A DNA stretch of 10,449 nucleotides from UHGV virus genome UHGV-1344453. One strand, written 5' to 3'. Both the position numbers and the translations under genes were made by a program. The first letter of the stretch is position 1, and each line of letters begins with the position of its first letter. Shown here in pieces: positions 3,054 to 9,409 of the stretch. The stretch comes from a virus. The notes beneath the pieces are model-generated. The model ran no database searches. It was not told the DNA's origin and worked only from the letters and a program-made list of their open reading frames with translations.

Positions 3054-4224
3054 ATGCCGAGAATTATCGAATTGCGCCAGCAGAAAACCGCCATCAAAAA
3101 TCAGATGCGCGACATGCTGGAGAACGCGGAAAAAGAAAACCGCAGCCTTAACGACGCCGAGGGCGCAAAATTTGACGAATTACGCGCTAAAGCTGAATCC
3201 CTCGATAAAGACATTTCCCGCCTTGAAGCCGTTGCCGACGAAGAGCGCAGCAAGCCAGGTAAAGCCAGCCAGACCACTGACCCCGCAGAACTTCGCAACT
3301 ACATCGTAACGGGTGACGTTCGCTCATTATCCACCACCACCAACGGCGGCAAGGACGGTGGTTATACCGTTATCCCTGAGCTTGATCGCGAGGTTATGCG
3401 GTTACTGAGTGATGAAAGCGTCATGCGAATGATTGCGACGGTGAAAACGGCGAAATCAAACGAATACCAGAAACTGGTTTCCACAGGTGGCGCAACGGTG
3501 GGGCGTGGCACTGAGGGCAACAAGCGAACCGAAACAGAAACCCCGAAAGTTGAGCGCGTAAGCATCAAACTTAACCCGATCTATGCCTACCCGAAAACCA
3601 CGCAGGAAATCCTGGATTTTTCAGAAGTGGATGTGCTGGGCTGGTTATCGTCTGAAATCGCCGACACGTTCGCCACGACCGAAGAAGATGATTTTGTAAA
3701 TGGTGACGGTACTGGCAAGCCGAAGGGTTTCCTGAATTACACCCGTGATACCAACAACGNNNNNNNNNNNNNCCTTTGGCACCATTGAAAAAATGGTTAC
3801 AACAACCGACGCCATTACAGCGGACGAACTGATCGACATCCTCTACAAGCTGAAAGCGAAATACCGTAAGAACGCCGTGTGGGTGATGAACTCGAACACT
3901 GCGGCAGCATTGCAGAAGCTGAAAAACCAGAGCGGTGATTACGTATGGCGTGACAGCCTCAAAGAGGGCGCACCTGACACATTGCTGGGCCGTCCTGTTT
4001 ATTACCTGGAAAGTATGCCGGACATCGGCAAAGGCAAAACGCCGCTGGCTGTCGGTGACTTTAAGCGCGGTTATTTCATCGTTGACCATGAAACGGGGAT
4101 CCGTACCCGACCGGACAACATTACAGAGCCGGGCTTCTACAAGGTACACACGGATAAATACATCGGCGGCGGGGTTGTTGACTCCCGCGCGATAAAAGTC
4201 CTCGAGATGAAAAACGGCGATTAA
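3054..4224 (+). CDS. Major capsid protein, HK97 fold, with N-terminal coiled-coil delta/scaffold-like domain; interrupted by the N-run 3760-3772, which causes an apparent frame change
   Basis: ATG at 3054 with AGGA 9 nt upstream. The N-terminal ~90 aa are charged and coiled-coil-like. The following sequence resembles HK97-family capsid proteins. The C-terminal part continues after the gap in a different frame to the stop at 4222-4224. Confidence 0.8.
3760..3772. other. Run of 13 N inside the capsid gene
   Basis: Directly visible. The frames on either side differ by 1, so the true missing length is not 13 or an indel lies nearby. Confidence 0.95.
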
Positions 4225-4229
4225 CAGAA

Positions 4230-4259
4230 AAAGGGGCTAAAAAGCCCCTTTGGTGTTTT
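4230..4259 (+). terminator. Hairpin with U-rich tail after the capsid gene; candidate partial terminator/attenuator
   Basis: AAAGGGGC (4230-4237), loop TAAAAA, GCCCCTTT (4244-4251), then GGTGTTTTA. Confidence 0.45.
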
Positions 4260-4835
4260 ATGGGTGAAAAAAATATGAAAAAGAGCATGGAAATCCGGTC
4301 ATCAGAAATCACCACCAGCGGAGCCAGTACGCTGACGGGTTACGTTGTTCGCTGGAATAACCTTTCTGATCTGCTATGGGGTGAGTTTTACGAAAAATTC
4401 CAGCGGGGGGCGTTCAGTGAGTGGCTGGCGGCGGGTAATGACGTTCGTGGCCTGTATGAGCATGACCACAGCATGTTACTGGGGCGCACCCGTTCCGGCA
4501 CGCTGAAACTGGAAGAGGACGACACAGGGTTACGCTTTGAACTGACCCCACCGGATACCAGCACAGGGCGGGACGTTATCGAACTGGTTAAACGTGGTGA
4601 TATATCCGGCATGAGCTTTGGCTTTCGTTCCCGTAAGGATGTATGGGATACCACAACAGATCCATGCGTGCGCACCGTGCTGGTGGCGGAACTGTACGAA
4701 ATTACCGTTACATCCGTACCGGCTTACCCTGATTCCGGCGTGGATCTGGCCCGCCGTTCCCTGTATGAGCAGCACCCCGAAAAAATGCCACGCGCGGATA
4801 ATCGCCGCTGGTGGGCGGATTTAGCGGGGGTGTGA
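4260..4835 (+). CDS. Prohead maturation protease, HK97 family (Peptidase S78/U35-like)
   Basis: 191 aa with a conserved His region (LYEHDHSMLLG) and a Ser motif (ISGMSFGF). Alternative starts at 4275 or 4287 are possible. The stop is 1 nt from the portal ATG. Confidence 0.8.
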   Translation: MGEKNMKKSMEIRSSEITTSGASTLTGYVVRWNNLSDLLWGEFYEKFQRGAFSEWLAAGNDVRGLYEHDHSMLLGRTRSGTLKLEEDDTGLRFELTPPDTSTGRDVIELVKRGDISGMSFGFRSRKDVWDTTTDPCVRTVLVAELYEITVTSVPAYPDSGVDLARRSLYEQHPEKMPRADNRRWWADLAGV

Positions 4836-4836
4836 T

Positions 4837-7288: not shown

Positions 7289-7296
7289 GGCCGTCA

Positions 7297-7364
7297 GAGG
7301 GGGTGGGGGTGGTTTTCAGGACGAAACCGTCCCTGCCGGACACCGACCACCTCCTCAAATTTTT
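7297..7364. promoter_or_regulatory. G-rich arm (GAGGGGGTGGGGGTGG) and C-rich arm (CACCGACCACCTCCTC) forming an imperfect inverted repeat followed by AAATTTTTA; candidate cos/terminase recognition site or attenuator
   Basis: Seen in sequence at 7297-7312 and 7341-7356. It sits between the HNH and terS genes, where HK97-like phages carry cos. Confidence 0.3.
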
Positions 7365-7407
7365 ATGCACGGGAATTTTTTGAAAAATAATCTGACGAAA
7401 AATAAGC

Positions 7408-7764
7408 ATGGCAAGACCACCGAAAGCCCCCGCCTACCTGGATGATATCGCCGTGAAGCAGTGGCGGGAAAAATCGCGGCAGCTTGCGGAACGGGGAGAC
7501 CTGACCCCCGCCGACTGGAGCAATCTGGAACTGTATTGTGTCAACTACTCCATTTACCGGAAAGCCGTCGCAGACCTTGCGGCGCGCGGGTTCAGCATTG
7601 TTAACAGTCAGGGCGGCGAGAGCAGAAACCCCGCATTAAGCGCAAAATCCGACGCTGAAAGAGTGATGATAAAAATGGCCTCCTTGCTCGGTTTTGACCC
7701 GATAAGCCGCCGTAAAAATCCACCGGAAACAGAAGAAGAGGACGAGCTTGACCGCCTGGAATAA
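7408..7764 (+). CDS. terS: Terminase small subunit (P27 family-like)
   Basis: 118 aa. Pattern WREKSRQLAERGDLTPADWSNLELYCVNYSIYRKAVADLAARG...NPALSAKSDAERVMIKMASLLGFDPISRRK fits P27-type TerS. Directly precedes and overlaps terL. Confidence 0.8.
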   Translation: MARPPKAPAYLDDIAVKQWREKSRQLAERGDLTPADWSNLELYCVNYSIYRKAVADLAARGFSIVNSQGGESRNPALSAKSDAERVMIKMASLLGFDPISRRKNPPETEEEDELDRLE

Positions 7765-9409
7765 GTACGCAGAAGACGTAAAAACGGGCAAAATTCCGGC
7801 CTGTAAACGGCTGAAACAGGCCGTTAAACGGTACTTTTCGGACCTTGAAAGCCCCCTTTACACGTTCGATCGTGAGGTTGTGGAGCGGTTTATTGCCTTT
7901 TCCAGGGTGTGCCCGCACGTAAAAGGGCCGATGCGTGGCAGACCCATTGAGCTGGAGCCGTGGCAGCAGTTCGCCTTTGCGTGCATCCTCGGCTTTAAGG
8001 TTAAGGCCACCGGACGGCGCAAATACACGAGCGCCTTTATCGAAGTGCCGCGCAAAAATGCGAAATCCACGACCGCCGCGATTCTGGCTAACTGGTTTTT
8101 GATTATGGAGAACGGTCAGCAGGATATCTACACCGCAGCGGTGAGCCGTGACCAGGCGCGGATCGTCTTTGATGATGCGCGTCAGATGTGCCTTTTATCC
8201 CGACCGTTACGCAGGCGGGTGAATATTCAGGCGCATAAGGTGATACACCCGAAAACCAACAGCCTGTTAAAGCCACTGGCAGCAAAAGCGGCAACCATTG
8301 AGGGGACAAACCCGAGTCTTGCCATTGTGGATGAATATCACCTGCACCCAGACAACGGGGTTTATTCCGCACTTGATATGGGGATGGGGGCGCGTCCGGA
8401 GGGGCTGTTATTTGCCATCACCACATCGGGGAGCAACGTTGTTTCAGCCTGTAAACAACACTATGACTATTGCTGTCAGATACTGGATGGTGAAGAGATG
8501 AACGAATCCATGTTCGTTCTGATTTACGAGCTGGATGATGAAAGCGAGGTTGACGATCCGGCGATGTGGATAAAGGCGAATCCAAATATCGATGTTTCCG
8601 TCGATCGTGAAAAACTGGCCTCAACCATCCAGAAAGCGCGGGGTATTCCGTCGCAGTGGGTGGAAATGCTCACCAAGCGATTCAATATCTGGTGTCAGGG
8701 GGCTACGCCGTGGATGGGTAACGGTGCATGGGCGGAGTGCGCCGGAACGTTCGCGGAGGCGGATTTATACGGGCAGGAGTGCTACGCGGGGCTGGACTTA
8801 TCATCAACCAGCGATATTTCCAGCGTGTGCTATGCCTTTCCGGTCGGTAAAAAGATTATGCTGGTTTTCCGTCACTATCTGCCGGAATTTCAGCTACAGA
8901 ACCCCGCCAATAAAAACCGCGCCATCTATCGCCAGTGGGTAAAGGCGGGCTGGATACGCACAACACCGGGTGACTGCATTGATTATGACCGTATCCGTGA
9001 TGACATCATGGCGGATGCAGAGAATTTCAATATCAGGCTGGTGGGCTTCGATACATGGAACGCCACGCACCTGAGGACGCAGCTACAGGGGGCAGGATTT
9101 GAGGTGGAGCCGTTCCCGCAAACATACCTTCGTTTCAGTCCGGCGGCGAAATCGTTCGAAGTTTTTGTTAACCGGAAGGTGATTGTGCATCGTGGTGATC
9201 CGGTGCTGGCCTGGTCAATGAGTAATGTTGTGATGCAGAGTGACGCGAACGCCAATATCAAGCCGAACAAGAAAAAATCATCCAACAAGATAGACCCGAG
9301 CGTTGCGGCGCTGATGGCGTTTGGCACATTCCAGGCAGAGCATGAGGAATTTGCATTTGATATGAGCGACAGCCACAAAGAGCGGCTTGCGGCGTTTGAT
9401 GGTGTGTAA
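7748..9409 (+). CDS. terL: Terminase large subunit (Terminase_1 family), apparent TTG start
   Basis: 553 aa. ATPase motifs (VPRKNAKST Walker A-like; LAIVDEYH Walker B) and a C-terminal nuclease-type domain. Codon 7748-7750 is TTG, preceded by GAGGA at 7737-7741. Overlaps terS by 17 nt. Confidence 0.85.
   Translation: MTAWNKYAEDVKTGKIPACKRLKQAVKRYFSDLESPLYTFDREVVERFIAFSRVCPHVKGPMRGRPIELEPWQQFAFACILGFKVKATGRRKYTSAFIEVPRKNAKSTTAAILANWFLIMENGQQDIYTAAVSRDQARIVFDDARQMCLLSRPLRRRVNIQAHKVIHPKTNSLLKPLAAKAATIEGTNPSLAIVDEYHLHPDNGVYSALDMGMGARPEGLLFAITTSGSNVVSACKQHYDYCCQILDGEEMNESMFVLIYELDDESEVDDPAMWIKANPNIDVSVDREKLASTIQKARGIPSQWVEMLTKRFNIWCQGATPWMGNGAWAECAGTFAEADLYGQECYAGLDLSSTSDISSVCYAFPVGKKIMLVFRHYLPEFQLQNPANKNRAIYRQWVKAGWIRTTPGDCIDYDRIRDDIMADAENFNIRLVGFDTWNATHLRTQLQGAGFEVEPFPQTYLRFSPAAKSFEVFVNRKVIVHRGDPVLAWSMSNVVMQSDANANIKPNKKKSSNKIDPSVAALMAFGTFQAEHEEFAFDMSDSHKERLAAFDGV

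What the first reader, a model, noticed from the sequence alone, without database searches (positions are those of the whole stretch)
3054..9409. Non-canonical, fully co-directional order of the head/packaging module
The gene order is capsid, protease, portal, closure/adaptor, connector, HNH, TerS, TerL. The canonical HK97/lambda-like order is TerS, TerL, portal, protease, capsid, then head-completion genes. Here the capsid gene comes first and is followed by a hairpin with a U-rich tail (4230-4259). That placement would naturally give high capsid and lower portal, protease and terminase expression. Adjacent genes overlap at their stops and starts, indicating translational coupling.
Basis: partly seen in the sequence, partly recalled or inferred. 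Interest (0 to 1): 0.55.

Follow-up and report, generated by a model that had tools for sequence, protein, structure and literature searches.

The report
Capsid-forming phage satellite packaging operon
The capsid-first gene order is real, but it is the published, conserved layout of capsid-forming phage satellites (cf-PICIs), which build their own small heads and borrow tails from a helper phage, so this is an ordinary member of a known family.

Summary
Window 3054-9409 carries, all on the + strand: major capsid protein, prohead protease, portal, head-closure (Hc1), head-tail adaptor (Ad1), HNH, TerS and TerL. The order does differ from HK97 and phi1026b, which run TerS-TerL-portal-protease-capsid-Ad1-Hc1.

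It is not new. Alqurainy et al. describe exactly this order (capsid-protease-portal-head connectors, then hnh-terS-terL) as the conserved organisation of proteobacterial cf-PICIs, and a later paper uses it as a search criterion. I found the same order in every one of 86 related loci long enough to show it, from Escherichia to Pasteurellaceae. The module is collinear in 530 of 5,426 complete E. coli genomes, including the O157:H7 island equivalent to the prototype EcCIEDL933.

The hairpin after the capsid gene (4230-4251) is real. An equivalent hairpin is present in about 65 of 70 distinct relatives, and HK97 has an annotated putative terminator at the same relative position. A leaky-terminator expression gradient is therefore plausible but untested. 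Gene overlaps are only partly confirmed.

Side observations: a probable cos site lies before TerS, a conserved block lies upstream of the capsid gene, and the island is inserted in the thiM TPP riboswitch.

The parts
1..1310 (+). Primase/D5-type helicase (pri-rep) of the island; its 5' end is cut off by the window edge
   Evidence: Pfam Pox_D5, DUF5906 and D5_N; PHROG 864 DNA primase. Relatives have an 1818-nt gene, and the match starts 510 nt into it.
1311..1600 (.). Probable replication origin: iterons GAACTGTTCACC just 3' of the primase gene (includes the masked N run 1519-1562)
   Evidence: Direct-repeat families D1, D10 and D12. The relative L001 shows further GGTGAACAGGTGAA copies under the N run. 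The function is inferred.
1841..2251 (+). Single-stranded DNA-binding protein
   Evidence: Pfam SSB, E=1.3e-16.
2262..2519 (+). PerC-family transcriptional activator
   Evidence: Pfam PerC, E=2.5e-36. Annotated at the same position in L001-L003.
2777..2803 (+). Terminator-like hairpin plus T7 that closes the upstream gene cluster
   Evidence: RNA fold of 2771-3056. Analogous hairpin + T-run in L002, L003 and L006.
2810..2850 (+). Conserved upstream block TTTTGTAAATTATTTGT + tandem GGTTGTTCGT; candidate promoter/regulator site of the packaging operon
   Evidence: The core motif lies 212-252 nt upstream of the capsid gene in 27 of the 30 distinct relatives (of 73) that carry it within 450 nt upstream. 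Alignment by eye of six loci. No sigma-70 consensus was detected here. The function is inferred.
3016..3053 (+). Hairpin (GTCCTG...CAGGAC) followed by T8, immediately before the capsid ATG; it contains the AGGA Shine-Dalgarno-like sequence
   Evidence: Fold of the leader, z = -4.0. Same stem with a different loop in the EcCIEDL933-like island L003. The role is unknown.
3054..4224 (+). HK97-fold major capsid protein with an N-terminal delta domain
   Evidence: Pfam PF05065 on both halves. The C-terminal half matches PDB 9GYI (the EcCIEDL933 capsid) at E=4.7e-57.
4230..4259 (+). Intrinsic-terminator-like hairpin AAAGGGGCT-AAAA-AGCCCCTTT with tail GGTGTTTT
   Evidence: A positionally equivalent hairpin is found in about 65 of 70 distinct relatives. 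HK97 has an annotated putative terminator right after gp5.
4260..4835 (+). Prohead serine protease (S78); the true start may be the ATG at 4275
   Evidence: Pfam PF04586, E=1.2e-47. Sequence at the junction.
4837..6051 (+). Portal protein
   Evidence: Pfam PF04860, E=8e-92.
6048..6386 (+). Head closure protein Hc1 (HK97 gp7-like)
   Evidence: Pfam PF05521; PHROG 25.
6383..6679 (+). Head-tail adaptor Ad1 (gp6-like connector)
   Evidence: Pfam PF05135; PHROG 40.
6679..7119 (+). HNH endonuclease, packaging accessory
   Evidence: Pfam PF01844; PHROG 144.
7103..7288 (+). 61-aa ORF of unknown function; probably the ninth gene of the packaging module
   Evidence: Annotated in relatives. tblastn hits in 32 loci at 32-100% identity. 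The paper speaks of a 9-gene module.
7289..7407 (.). Conserved non-coding region (GGGGTGGGGGTGG ... CCACCTCCTCAAATTTTTATGCACGG ... T-run); probable cos site
   Evidence: Alignment of 13 loci from Escherichia to Pasteurellaceae. HNH-cos-TerS is the HK97-type arrangement (established knowledge). The cos function is inferred.
7408..7764 (+). Small terminase (P27 family)
   Evidence: Pfam PF05119. 100% amino-acid identity to the TerS of the O157:H7 island.
7748..9409 (+). Large terminase (ATPase + nuclease)
   Evidence: Pfam PF03354 + PF20441; PHROG 9.
9410..10022 (.). Island right arm with no recognisable gene; clusters of short repeats (TTGCGGGTT x3, AACCCGC x3, TTGTTCGT x2, GTGTGGTCAGTT x2), probably recombinase arm sites
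   Evidence: The function is inferred.
10023..10036 (.). attR core AGAAATACCCGTAT, inside the thiM TPP riboswitch aptamer
   Evidence: The same 14 nt sits at attL of L002, next to the 5' half of the aptamer. Sub-threshold TPP match of 36.5 bits against a cut-off of 54.3.
10118..10449 (+). Host thiM (hydroxyethylthiazole kinase); runs off the window
   Evidence: Pfam PF02110, E=2.6e-43. thiM annotation under the matches.

Best explanation
What it is. The window holds the right-hand two thirds of a capsid-forming phage-inducible chromosomal island (cf-PICI) of Escherichia, integrated upstream of thiM. Region 3054-9409 is its packaging operon.

How it works, by analogy with the prototype EcCIEDL933 (all steps below are inferred, not shown for this element):
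- A helper siphophage switches the island on.
- The island excises and replicates from its own primase and origin.
- It transcribes the operon from a start about 240 nt upstream of the capsid gene.
- Capsid protein, protease and portal build a small (T=4) HK97-fold procapsid.
- TerS, TerL and HNH recognise and cut the island's own cos site, probably at 7289-7407, and fill the capsid with island DNA.
- Hc1 and Ad1 close the portal and provide the docking surface for tails taken from the helper phage.

Gene order. The capsid-first order is the fixed layout of this satellite lineage. With the capsid gene promoter-proximal and followed by a weak intrinsic terminator, one promoter probably gives much more capsid mRNA than mRNA for the low-copy proteins downstream (inferred). 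Stop/start overlaps probably couple translation within the portal-Hc1-Ad1-HNH-orf61 block and the TerS-TerL pair (inferred).
For: Gene content and order.

Literature. The same order is described as the conserved organisation of proteobacterial cf-PICIs, and as different from the helper phage HK106. The same list is used as a search criterion, and the module is said to have 9 genes.

Relatives:
- Every one of 86 related loci long enough to show it has the identical order, across at least six families of Gammaproteobacteria.
- The module is collinear in 530 of 5,426 complete E. coli genomes.
- The complete relatives L001-L005 are about 14-15 kb islands. Each has an integrase, an HTH regulator, primase and this module, and none has a complete tail module or lysis genes. 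They sit at four different chromosomal sites. L006 shares the L001 site, but its left end is cut off by the fetched stretch.
- The O157:H7 island (equivalent to EcCIEDL933) shares 95-100% amino-acid identity for protease, portal, TerS and TerL.
- The capsid matches PDB 9GYI, the EcCIEDL933 capsid.

Distance from phages. True phages reach at most 35% portal identity. The only records above 60% are two 15-16.5 kb satellite-sized entries, a 3.8-kb fragment and one 106-kb Klebsiella record that I did not inspect.

Window boundary. TerL is followed directly by an att arm and host thiM, with no tail or lysis genes.

Hairpin. It is conserved in position in about 65 of 70 distinct relatives, with several different stem sequences: GGAGGC/GCCTCC, GGGAT/ATCCC, CGGGGC/GCCCCG, and a 14-bp Proteus version.
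Against: The integrase and the alpA-type regulator lie outside the window, so two of the eleven core components are seen only in relatives. Helper dependence, capsid size, cos cleavage, the transcription start and terminator read-through are not shown for this element. No sigma-70 consensus promoter was detected upstream of the capsid gene. The hairpin's U-tract is short and interrupted (TTTGGTGTTTT), so it may not terminate at all. Its 3' arm GCCCCTTT is nearly invariant, so covariation support is thin. Some relatives carry genes annotated as tail-related next to the module (L004, vB_KppS-Ant, Pmp8). These annotations were not checked.
Confidence: 0.92

Rival explanations
1. It is a decayed HK97-like prophage that lost its tail, lysis and regulatory genes and had its head genes rearranged by chance. 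The order would then have no functional meaning.
For: All head and packaging proteins belong to HK97-type Pfam/PHROG families. RefSeq annotates them simply as phage proteins.
Against: The same compact element, with the same order and boundaries, recurs at four different integration sites in E. coli and in dozens of genera. All nine ORFs are intact. Stop/start overlaps and non-coding blocks are conserved. Portal identity to any genuine phage is at most 35%. Each of the prototype's packaging genes has been shown to be required for transfer.
Confidence: 0.03
2. It is a very small autonomous temperate phage, as the GenBank names 'Escherichia phage vB_KppS-Ant' and 'Pasteurella phage Pmp8' suggest, with unrecognised tail genes among its small ORFs.
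For: Two records of 15-16.5 kb with this module are deposited as phages. A few relatives have ORFs annotated as tail tape measure, tail assembly or tail terminator.
Against: In the window nothing follows TerL except an att arm. The genes upstream of the capsid gene are SSB, PerC and two small ORFs with no Pfam match. A 14-15 kb genome cannot hold a siphovirus tail module. The prototype needs helper-phage tails.
Confidence: 0.02
3. This rival concerns the hairpin only. The 4230-4251 stem-loop would not be an attenuator. It would be a 3' stabiliser or processing barrier that protects the capsid mRNA from exonucleases, or simply an inherited relic of the HK97-type capsid gene, while downstream genes are transcribed at the same rate.
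For: The U-tract is short and broken. In many relatives only 1-3 T residues follow the stem. The upstream A-run pairs with the T-run, which weakens termination. HK97 carries the same element in a different operon context.
Against: Positional conservation across distant genera, with changed stem sequences, argues for selection on the structure. The large excess of capsid subunits over portal and terminase subunits in an assembled head fits attenuation (established virion stoichiometry).
Confidence: 0.3

Closest known systems
EcCIEDL933, the prototype capsid-forming PICI of E. coli O157:H7 (Alqurainy et al., bioRxiv 10.1101/2022.09.08.507074; capsid structure PDB 9GYI)
   Same: Identical gene order, including the small ORF between HNH and TerS. 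Same overlaps. Same hairpin after the capsid gene (AGGGGCT-TAAA-AGCCCCT). Same conserved block upstream of the capsid gene and before TerS. Amino-acid identity: TerS 100%, portal 97%, protease and TerL 95%.
   Different: Capsid protein only about 61-73% identical, Hc1 51%, Ad1 74%, HNH 84%. The replication protein is different (DUF927 protein rather than D5-type primase). The integration site is different (roxA/phoQ rather than the thiM riboswitch). The window also lacks the 93-aa ORF that follows TerL in L001, L003, L005 and L006.
HK97 and HK97-like cos siphophages with HNH-dependent packaging (for example HK97 NC_002167, phi1026b NC_005284)
   Same: Same protein families for all eight genes. 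A hairpin or putative terminator directly after the major capsid gene. TerS-TerL adjacent and in the same order. That HNH lies next to cos and TerS in the circular HK97 genome is recalled from the literature and was not checked here.
   Different: Phage order is TerS-TerL-portal-protease-capsid-Ad1-Hc1 followed by tail genes. Here the order is capsid-protease-portal-Hc1-Ad1-HNH-orf-TerS-TerL with no tail or lysis genes. Portal identity is at most 35%.
Classical Gram-negative PICIs (EcCICFT073 type) and P4-like satellites
   Same: Relatives share the integrase, HTH/AlpA-type regulator and primase left half with classical PICIs, together with small size and dedicated att sites.
   Different: Classical PICIs and P4 do not encode capsid, portal, connectors or TerL. 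They remodel or redirect helper capsids instead.

Membership tests
cf-PICI (proteobacterial group) | Packaging module encoding capsid, protease, portal, two head-tail connector proteins, HNH, TerS and TerL | tested here: met
   All eight found with Pfam and PHROG E-values from 1e-10 to 1e-179.
cf-PICI (proteobacterial group) | Conserved order: morphogenetic genes (capsid-protease-portal-connectors) first, then hnh-terS-terL | tested here: met
   Window order equals the published order and that of all 86 fetched relatives long enough to show it.
cf-PICI (proteobacterial group) | Packaging proteins 50-90% identical (or more) to those of EcCIEDL933 | tested here: met
   51-100% amino-acid identity to the O157:H7 island L003. 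Capsid C-terminal half against PDB 9GYI, E=4.7e-57.
cf-PICI (proteobacterial group) | No tail module and no lysis (holin) genes | tested here: met
   Within the window, TerL is followed by 613 bp of repeat-rich non-coding DNA, the att core and host thiM. The ORFs upstream of the capsid gene are primase, SSB, PerC and two small ORFs with no Pfam match. The part left of the window was seen only in relatives.
cf-PICI (proteobacterial group) | Integrase plus AlpA/HTH-type regulator plus primase-replicase module at the left end | tested here: inconclusive
   Only the primase (cut by the window edge) is in the window. L002 shares the same att site and a 99% identical primase, and it has an integrase, an HTH regulator and an Icd-like gene.
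cf-PICI (proteobacterial group) | Element size about 10-18 kb, with a dedicated att site | tested here: inconclusive
   The right end is mapped (att core 10023-10036) but the left end is outside the window. At least 10.0 kb of island is present. L002, at the same site, spans about 15 kb between its att cores.
cf-PICI (proteobacterial group) | Induced by a helper phage; forms its own small (T=4) capsids; needs only helper tails for transfer | not testable with these tools
   Experimental property. Shown for EcCIEDL933 and other cf-PICIs in the cited papers.
HK97-like temperate siphophage (prophage) | Head module order TerS-TerL-portal-protease-capsid followed by tail and lysis modules | tested here: not met
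   The order differs from the HK97 and phi1026b records. No tail or lysis genes.

The most novel reading that the evidence does not exclude
In this reading the capsid-first layout is an autonomous dosage device specific to cf-PICIs, not just a lineage habit. Four elements would act together: a terminator that closes the replication genes; a conserved TTTTGTAAATTATTTGT block, about 240 nt upstream of the capsid gene, bound by an island or helper regulator; a structured leader whose last hairpin hides the capsid ribosome-binding site; and a leaky terminator after the capsid gene. These would set the timing and the capsid-to-portal/terminase ratio from a single promoter without the helper's late antitermination system. 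The GTTGTTCGT tandem occurs both in that block and in the att arms. It could link packaging-gene expression to the excision machinery.
Probability: 0.25. Interest if true: 0.35.

Novelty: already known. Interest (0 to 1): 0.13.

Why it matters
cf-PICIs are common: about 10% of complete E. coli genomes here, and 13% of Enterobacteriaceae genomes in the SatelliteFinder survey. They move DNA between species by docking their own capsids onto different phage tails, so recognising them correctly matters for annotation. RefSeq labels these genes simply as phage proteins. The gene order itself adds nothing new. The side observations are modest, testable additions to the biology of a known family: a universally placed hairpin after the capsid gene, a conserved probable cos region, a conserved upstream block, and integration that splits the thiM TPP riboswitch.

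Tried and rejected
- RNAalifold on a MAFFT alignment of 42 capsid-3' regions gave only 3 pairs, because loop-length differences put the 5' arms out of register. I relied instead on a per-sequence hairpin search.
- Rfam at gathering thresholds found no RNA family in the window or in three relatives.
- The sigma-70 consensus scan found no promoter near the capsid gene. Overall promoter-like and terminator-like counts were not above shuffled expectation.
- I tried to map cos ends from the linear record vB_KppS-Ant. Its permutation point falls in the HNH-TerS gap, but about 70 nt of the conserved region is missing from the record, so it is not decisive.
- The GTTGTTCGT motif count in the window (6 against 2.6 expected; 7 of 200 shuffles reach it) is only marginal.
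- The apparent frameshift in the capsid gene was rejected as a masking artefact.
- The readings as a prophage remnant, an autonomous mini-phage, a P4-like element or a GTA were considered and rejected on gene content and conservation. The RcGTA capsid is only a distant PDB hit.

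
Full report
1. What is in the window

All substantial genes lie on the + strand. Pfam and PHROG scans give the following map:
- D5-type primase/helicase, cut by the left edge: 1-1310
- SSB: 1841-2251
- PerC-family activator: 2262-2519
- small ORF: 2510-2770
- major capsid protein: 3054-4224
- S78 prohead protease: 4260-4835
- portal: 4837-6051
- head closure Hc1: 6048-6386
- head-tail adaptor Ad1: 6383-6679
- HNH endonuclease: 6679-7119
- 61-aa ORF: 7103-7288
- P27-family TerS: 7408-7764
- TerL: 7748-9409
- host thiM: from 10118

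The capsid ORF appears broken into two frames. This is caused only by a run of 13 N at 3760-3772, which stands for 12 bases in a 99.7%-identical relative. A second N run lies at 1519-1562.

2. Junctions and the hairpin

The junction sequences show:
- 4-nt ATGA overlaps at portal/Hc1 and Hc1/Ad1
- a 1-nt overlap at Ad1/HNH
- 17-nt overlaps at HNH/orf61 and TerS/TerL
- a 1-nt gap at protease/portal
- 35 nt between capsid and protease
- 119 nt between orf61 and TerS

"Adjacent genes overlap" therefore holds for five of eight junctions.

The hairpin AAAGGGGCT-AAAA-AGCCCCTTT at 4230-4251, with tail GGTGTTTT, is the best terminator-like site in the window and folds at -14.8 kcal/mol. The overall number of terminator-like sites in the window is not above shuffled expectation (14 against 12.6). 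The case for this hairpin therefore rests on its position and conservation, not on the scan.

3. Is the order unusual?

Relative to phages, yes. The HK97 record reads TerS, TerL, portal, protease, major head protein, Ad1, Hc1, then tail genes. phi1026b, one of the closest true phages by portal similarity, reads the same. In the window the three assembly genes are in reverse relative order, the two connector genes are swapped, and HNH-TerS-TerL comes last. This is not a simple circular permutation of the phage map.

4. Is the order new?

No. [quoted passage not shown] It also says the satellite and helper-phage modules "have different genetic organisations" (10.1101/2022.09.08.507074). [quoted passage not shown] SatelliteFinder defines cfPICI by eleven core components with tail and holin genes forbidden. 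It reports cfPICI in 13% of Enterobacteriaceae genomes, with very conserved organisation (PMC10085698).

5. Direct tests of membership

- A megablast of the window found a 98%-identical island in E. coli SB0258h1 and 87%-identical islands in many strains.
- A blastn of 3054-7000 found the module collinear over at least 80% of its length in 530 of 5,426 complete E. coli genomes.
- Annotated relatives are about 14-15 kb islands. Each has an integrase, an HTH regulator, an Icd-like gene, primase, sometimes SSB and PerC, and then this module.
- These islands sit at four different sites: gcd/hpt, rcnR/thiM, roxA/phoQ and yhdJ/fis. None has a complete tail module or lysis genes. L004 does carry one ORF annotated as a tail assembly protein, which I did not check.
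- The roxA/phoQ island of O157:H7 strain ATCC 43894 corresponds to EcCIEDL933. It shares 95-100% amino-acid identity with the window for protease, portal, TerS and TerL. Identity is only 51-84% for capsid, Hc1, Ad1 and HNH. This mosaic pattern was already noted for the family.
- The capsid matches PDB 9GYI, which is the EcCIEDL933 capsid.
- A scan of one genome per bacterial species with the portal protein returned 80 loci. They come from Shigella, Klebsiella, Enterobacter, Kosakonia, Citrobacter, Proteus, Providencia, Xenorhabdus, Photorhabdus, Serratia, Yersinia, Erwinia, Pantoea, Pectobacterium, Gilliamella, Frischella and Pasteurellaceae.
- tblastn with the window's proteins shows the same order in every locus long enough to show it. 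The only variation is loss of Hc1 in some loci.
- Against 50,697 phage records, portal identity falls from 63-80% to at most 35% for genuine phages. The records above 60% are two satellite-sized entries of 15-16.5 kb that carry this same order, a 3.8-kb fragment, and a 106-kb Klebsiella record I did not inspect.

The integrase and regulator lie outside the window, so those two features rest on relatives. Helper dependence cannot be tested here.

6. The hairpin and the expression-gradient idea

I located the capsid stop codon in each relative and searched the next 60 nt. A G+C-rich hairpin, usually GGGGC-loop-GCCCC, starts 1-15 nt after the stop in about 65 of 70 distinct sequences. It is flanked by A residues upstream and T residues downstream.

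Several stems differ while keeping their pairing: GGAGGC/GCCTCC, GGGAT/ATCCC, GGGGT/ACCCC, CGGGGC/GCCCCG, and a 14-bp stem in Proteus. Three Xenorhabdus variants lack the hairpin.

HK97 itself has GAGGGGGCGGG-GAAA-CCCGCCCTTTT right after gp5, annotated as a putative terminator. The capsid gene and its hairpin are therefore an inherited unit. What differs in the satellite is the context. The capsid gene is promoter-proximal, so any termination at the hairpin lowers transcription of all the other packaging genes.

That fits the need for a large excess of capsid subunits over portal and terminase subunits. However, the T-tract is short and interrupted, and nothing shows termination in vivo. I rate attenuation as more likely than not. 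An mRNA-stabilising role, or no role, remains open.

7. Operon boundaries (inferred)

The gene before the module ends with a hairpin plus T7 at 2777-2803.

Directly after it lies TTTTGTAAATTATTTGT, followed by tandem GGTTGTTCGT (2810-2850). The core motif recurs upstream of the capsid gene in 30 of 73 distinct relatives, and 212-252 nt upstream in 27 of them, whatever gene precedes it. It does not resemble a sigma-70 consensus promoter.

The leader is more structured than shuffled controls (z = -4.0). It ends in a hairpin plus T8 that contains the AGGA ribosome-binding-like sequence. The O157:H7 island conserves this hairpin with a different loop.

The 119-nt gap before TerS is strongly conserved from Escherichia to Pasteurellaceae: GGGGTGGGGG ... 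CCTCCTCAAATTTTTAYGCACGG ... T-run. By analogy with HK97-type HNH-dependent packaging, it is the likely cos site. The linear record vB_KppS-Ant is permuted within this gap but lacks part of it, so it does not settle the matter.

8. Right end of the island

After TerL come 613 bp with no recognisable gene, rich in short repeats. Then comes AGAAATACCCGTAT (10023-10036), followed by the 3' half of the thiM TPP riboswitch and thiM. In strain CEA106S, which has an island at the same site, the same 14 nt at the left end follows the 5' half of the aptamer. Accordingly, the window gives only a sub-threshold TPP match, 36.5 bits against a cut-off of 54.3. The island therefore splits the thiMD riboswitch. 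I found no paper in the held library that mentions this site.

9. Verdict

The element is an ordinary cf-PICI. The hairpin-based dosage idea is sensible, gains comparative support here, and was not discussed in the two cf-PICI papers I searched. It follows a familiar design principle, however, and remains untested. Interest is low.

Noticed in passing
window 10023-10117 (att core 10023-10036); L002 about 3880-3920: The island is integrated inside the thiM TPP riboswitch aptamer. The 14-nt core AGAAATACCCGTAT is duplicated. The 5' half of the aptamer stays at attL, about 15 kb from the 3' half and thiMD. Rfam TPP scores only 36.5 bits against a cut-off of 54.3. The effect on thiMD regulation is unknown, and no paper in the held library mentions this site.
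   Followed up: partly
window 7289-7407: This non-coding block before TerS is conserved from Escherichia to Pasteurellaceae (GGGGTGGGGGTGG ... CCACCTCCTCAAATTTTTATGCACGG ... T-run). It is the probable cos site of the satellite.
   Followed up: partly
window 2810-2850, also 9899-9917: The conserved motif TTTTGTAAATTATTTGT recurs upstream of the capsid gene in 30 of 73 distinct relatives, and in 27 of these it lies at a fixed distance of 212-252 nt. It is followed by a tandem GGTTGTTCGT, which recurs in the island's right arm and near attL/int of L002. It is a candidate promoter or regulator site. The enrichment of the short motif is only marginal.
   Followed up: partly
window 3016-3053: A hairpin followed by T8 sits directly before the capsid start codon and encloses the AGGA ribosome-binding-like sequence. 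The O157:H7 island conserves it with a different loop. It could be a translational or transcriptional control element.
   Followed up: no
window 1311-1600: Iterons containing GAACTGTTCACC lie just downstream of the primase gene and probably form the island's replication origin. They are partly hidden by a masked N run.
   Followed up: no
window 1519-1562 and 3760-3772: There are two runs of N (44 and 13 bases). The second is one base longer than the sequence it replaces in a 99.7%-identical relative, which creates a false frameshift in the capsid gene.
   Followed up: yes
window 7103-7288: This 61-aa, Arg/Lys/Glu-rich ORF overlaps the HNH stop by 17 nt. It is annotated in relatives and detectable in 32 loci at down to 32% identity, but has no Pfam match. 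It is probably the ninth gene of the published 9-gene module. Its function is unknown.
   Followed up: partly
window 3054-9409 compared with L002, L003, L005: The module is mosaic. Against the O157:H7 island, protease, portal, TerS and TerL are 95-100% identical, but capsid, Hc1 and Ad1 only 51-74%. Against L002, HNH and TerL are 97-99% identical, but protease and Hc1 about 62%. Some relatives have a single connector gene. This points to recombination within the fixed gene order.
   Followed up: partly
L004 15357-15956; L088 2036-4333; L089 14914-15321: Some relatives carry ORFs next to the packaging module that are annotated as tail assembly protein, tape measure protein or tail terminator. 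These may be mis-annotated accessory or defence genes, or real tail-related cargo.
   Followed up: no
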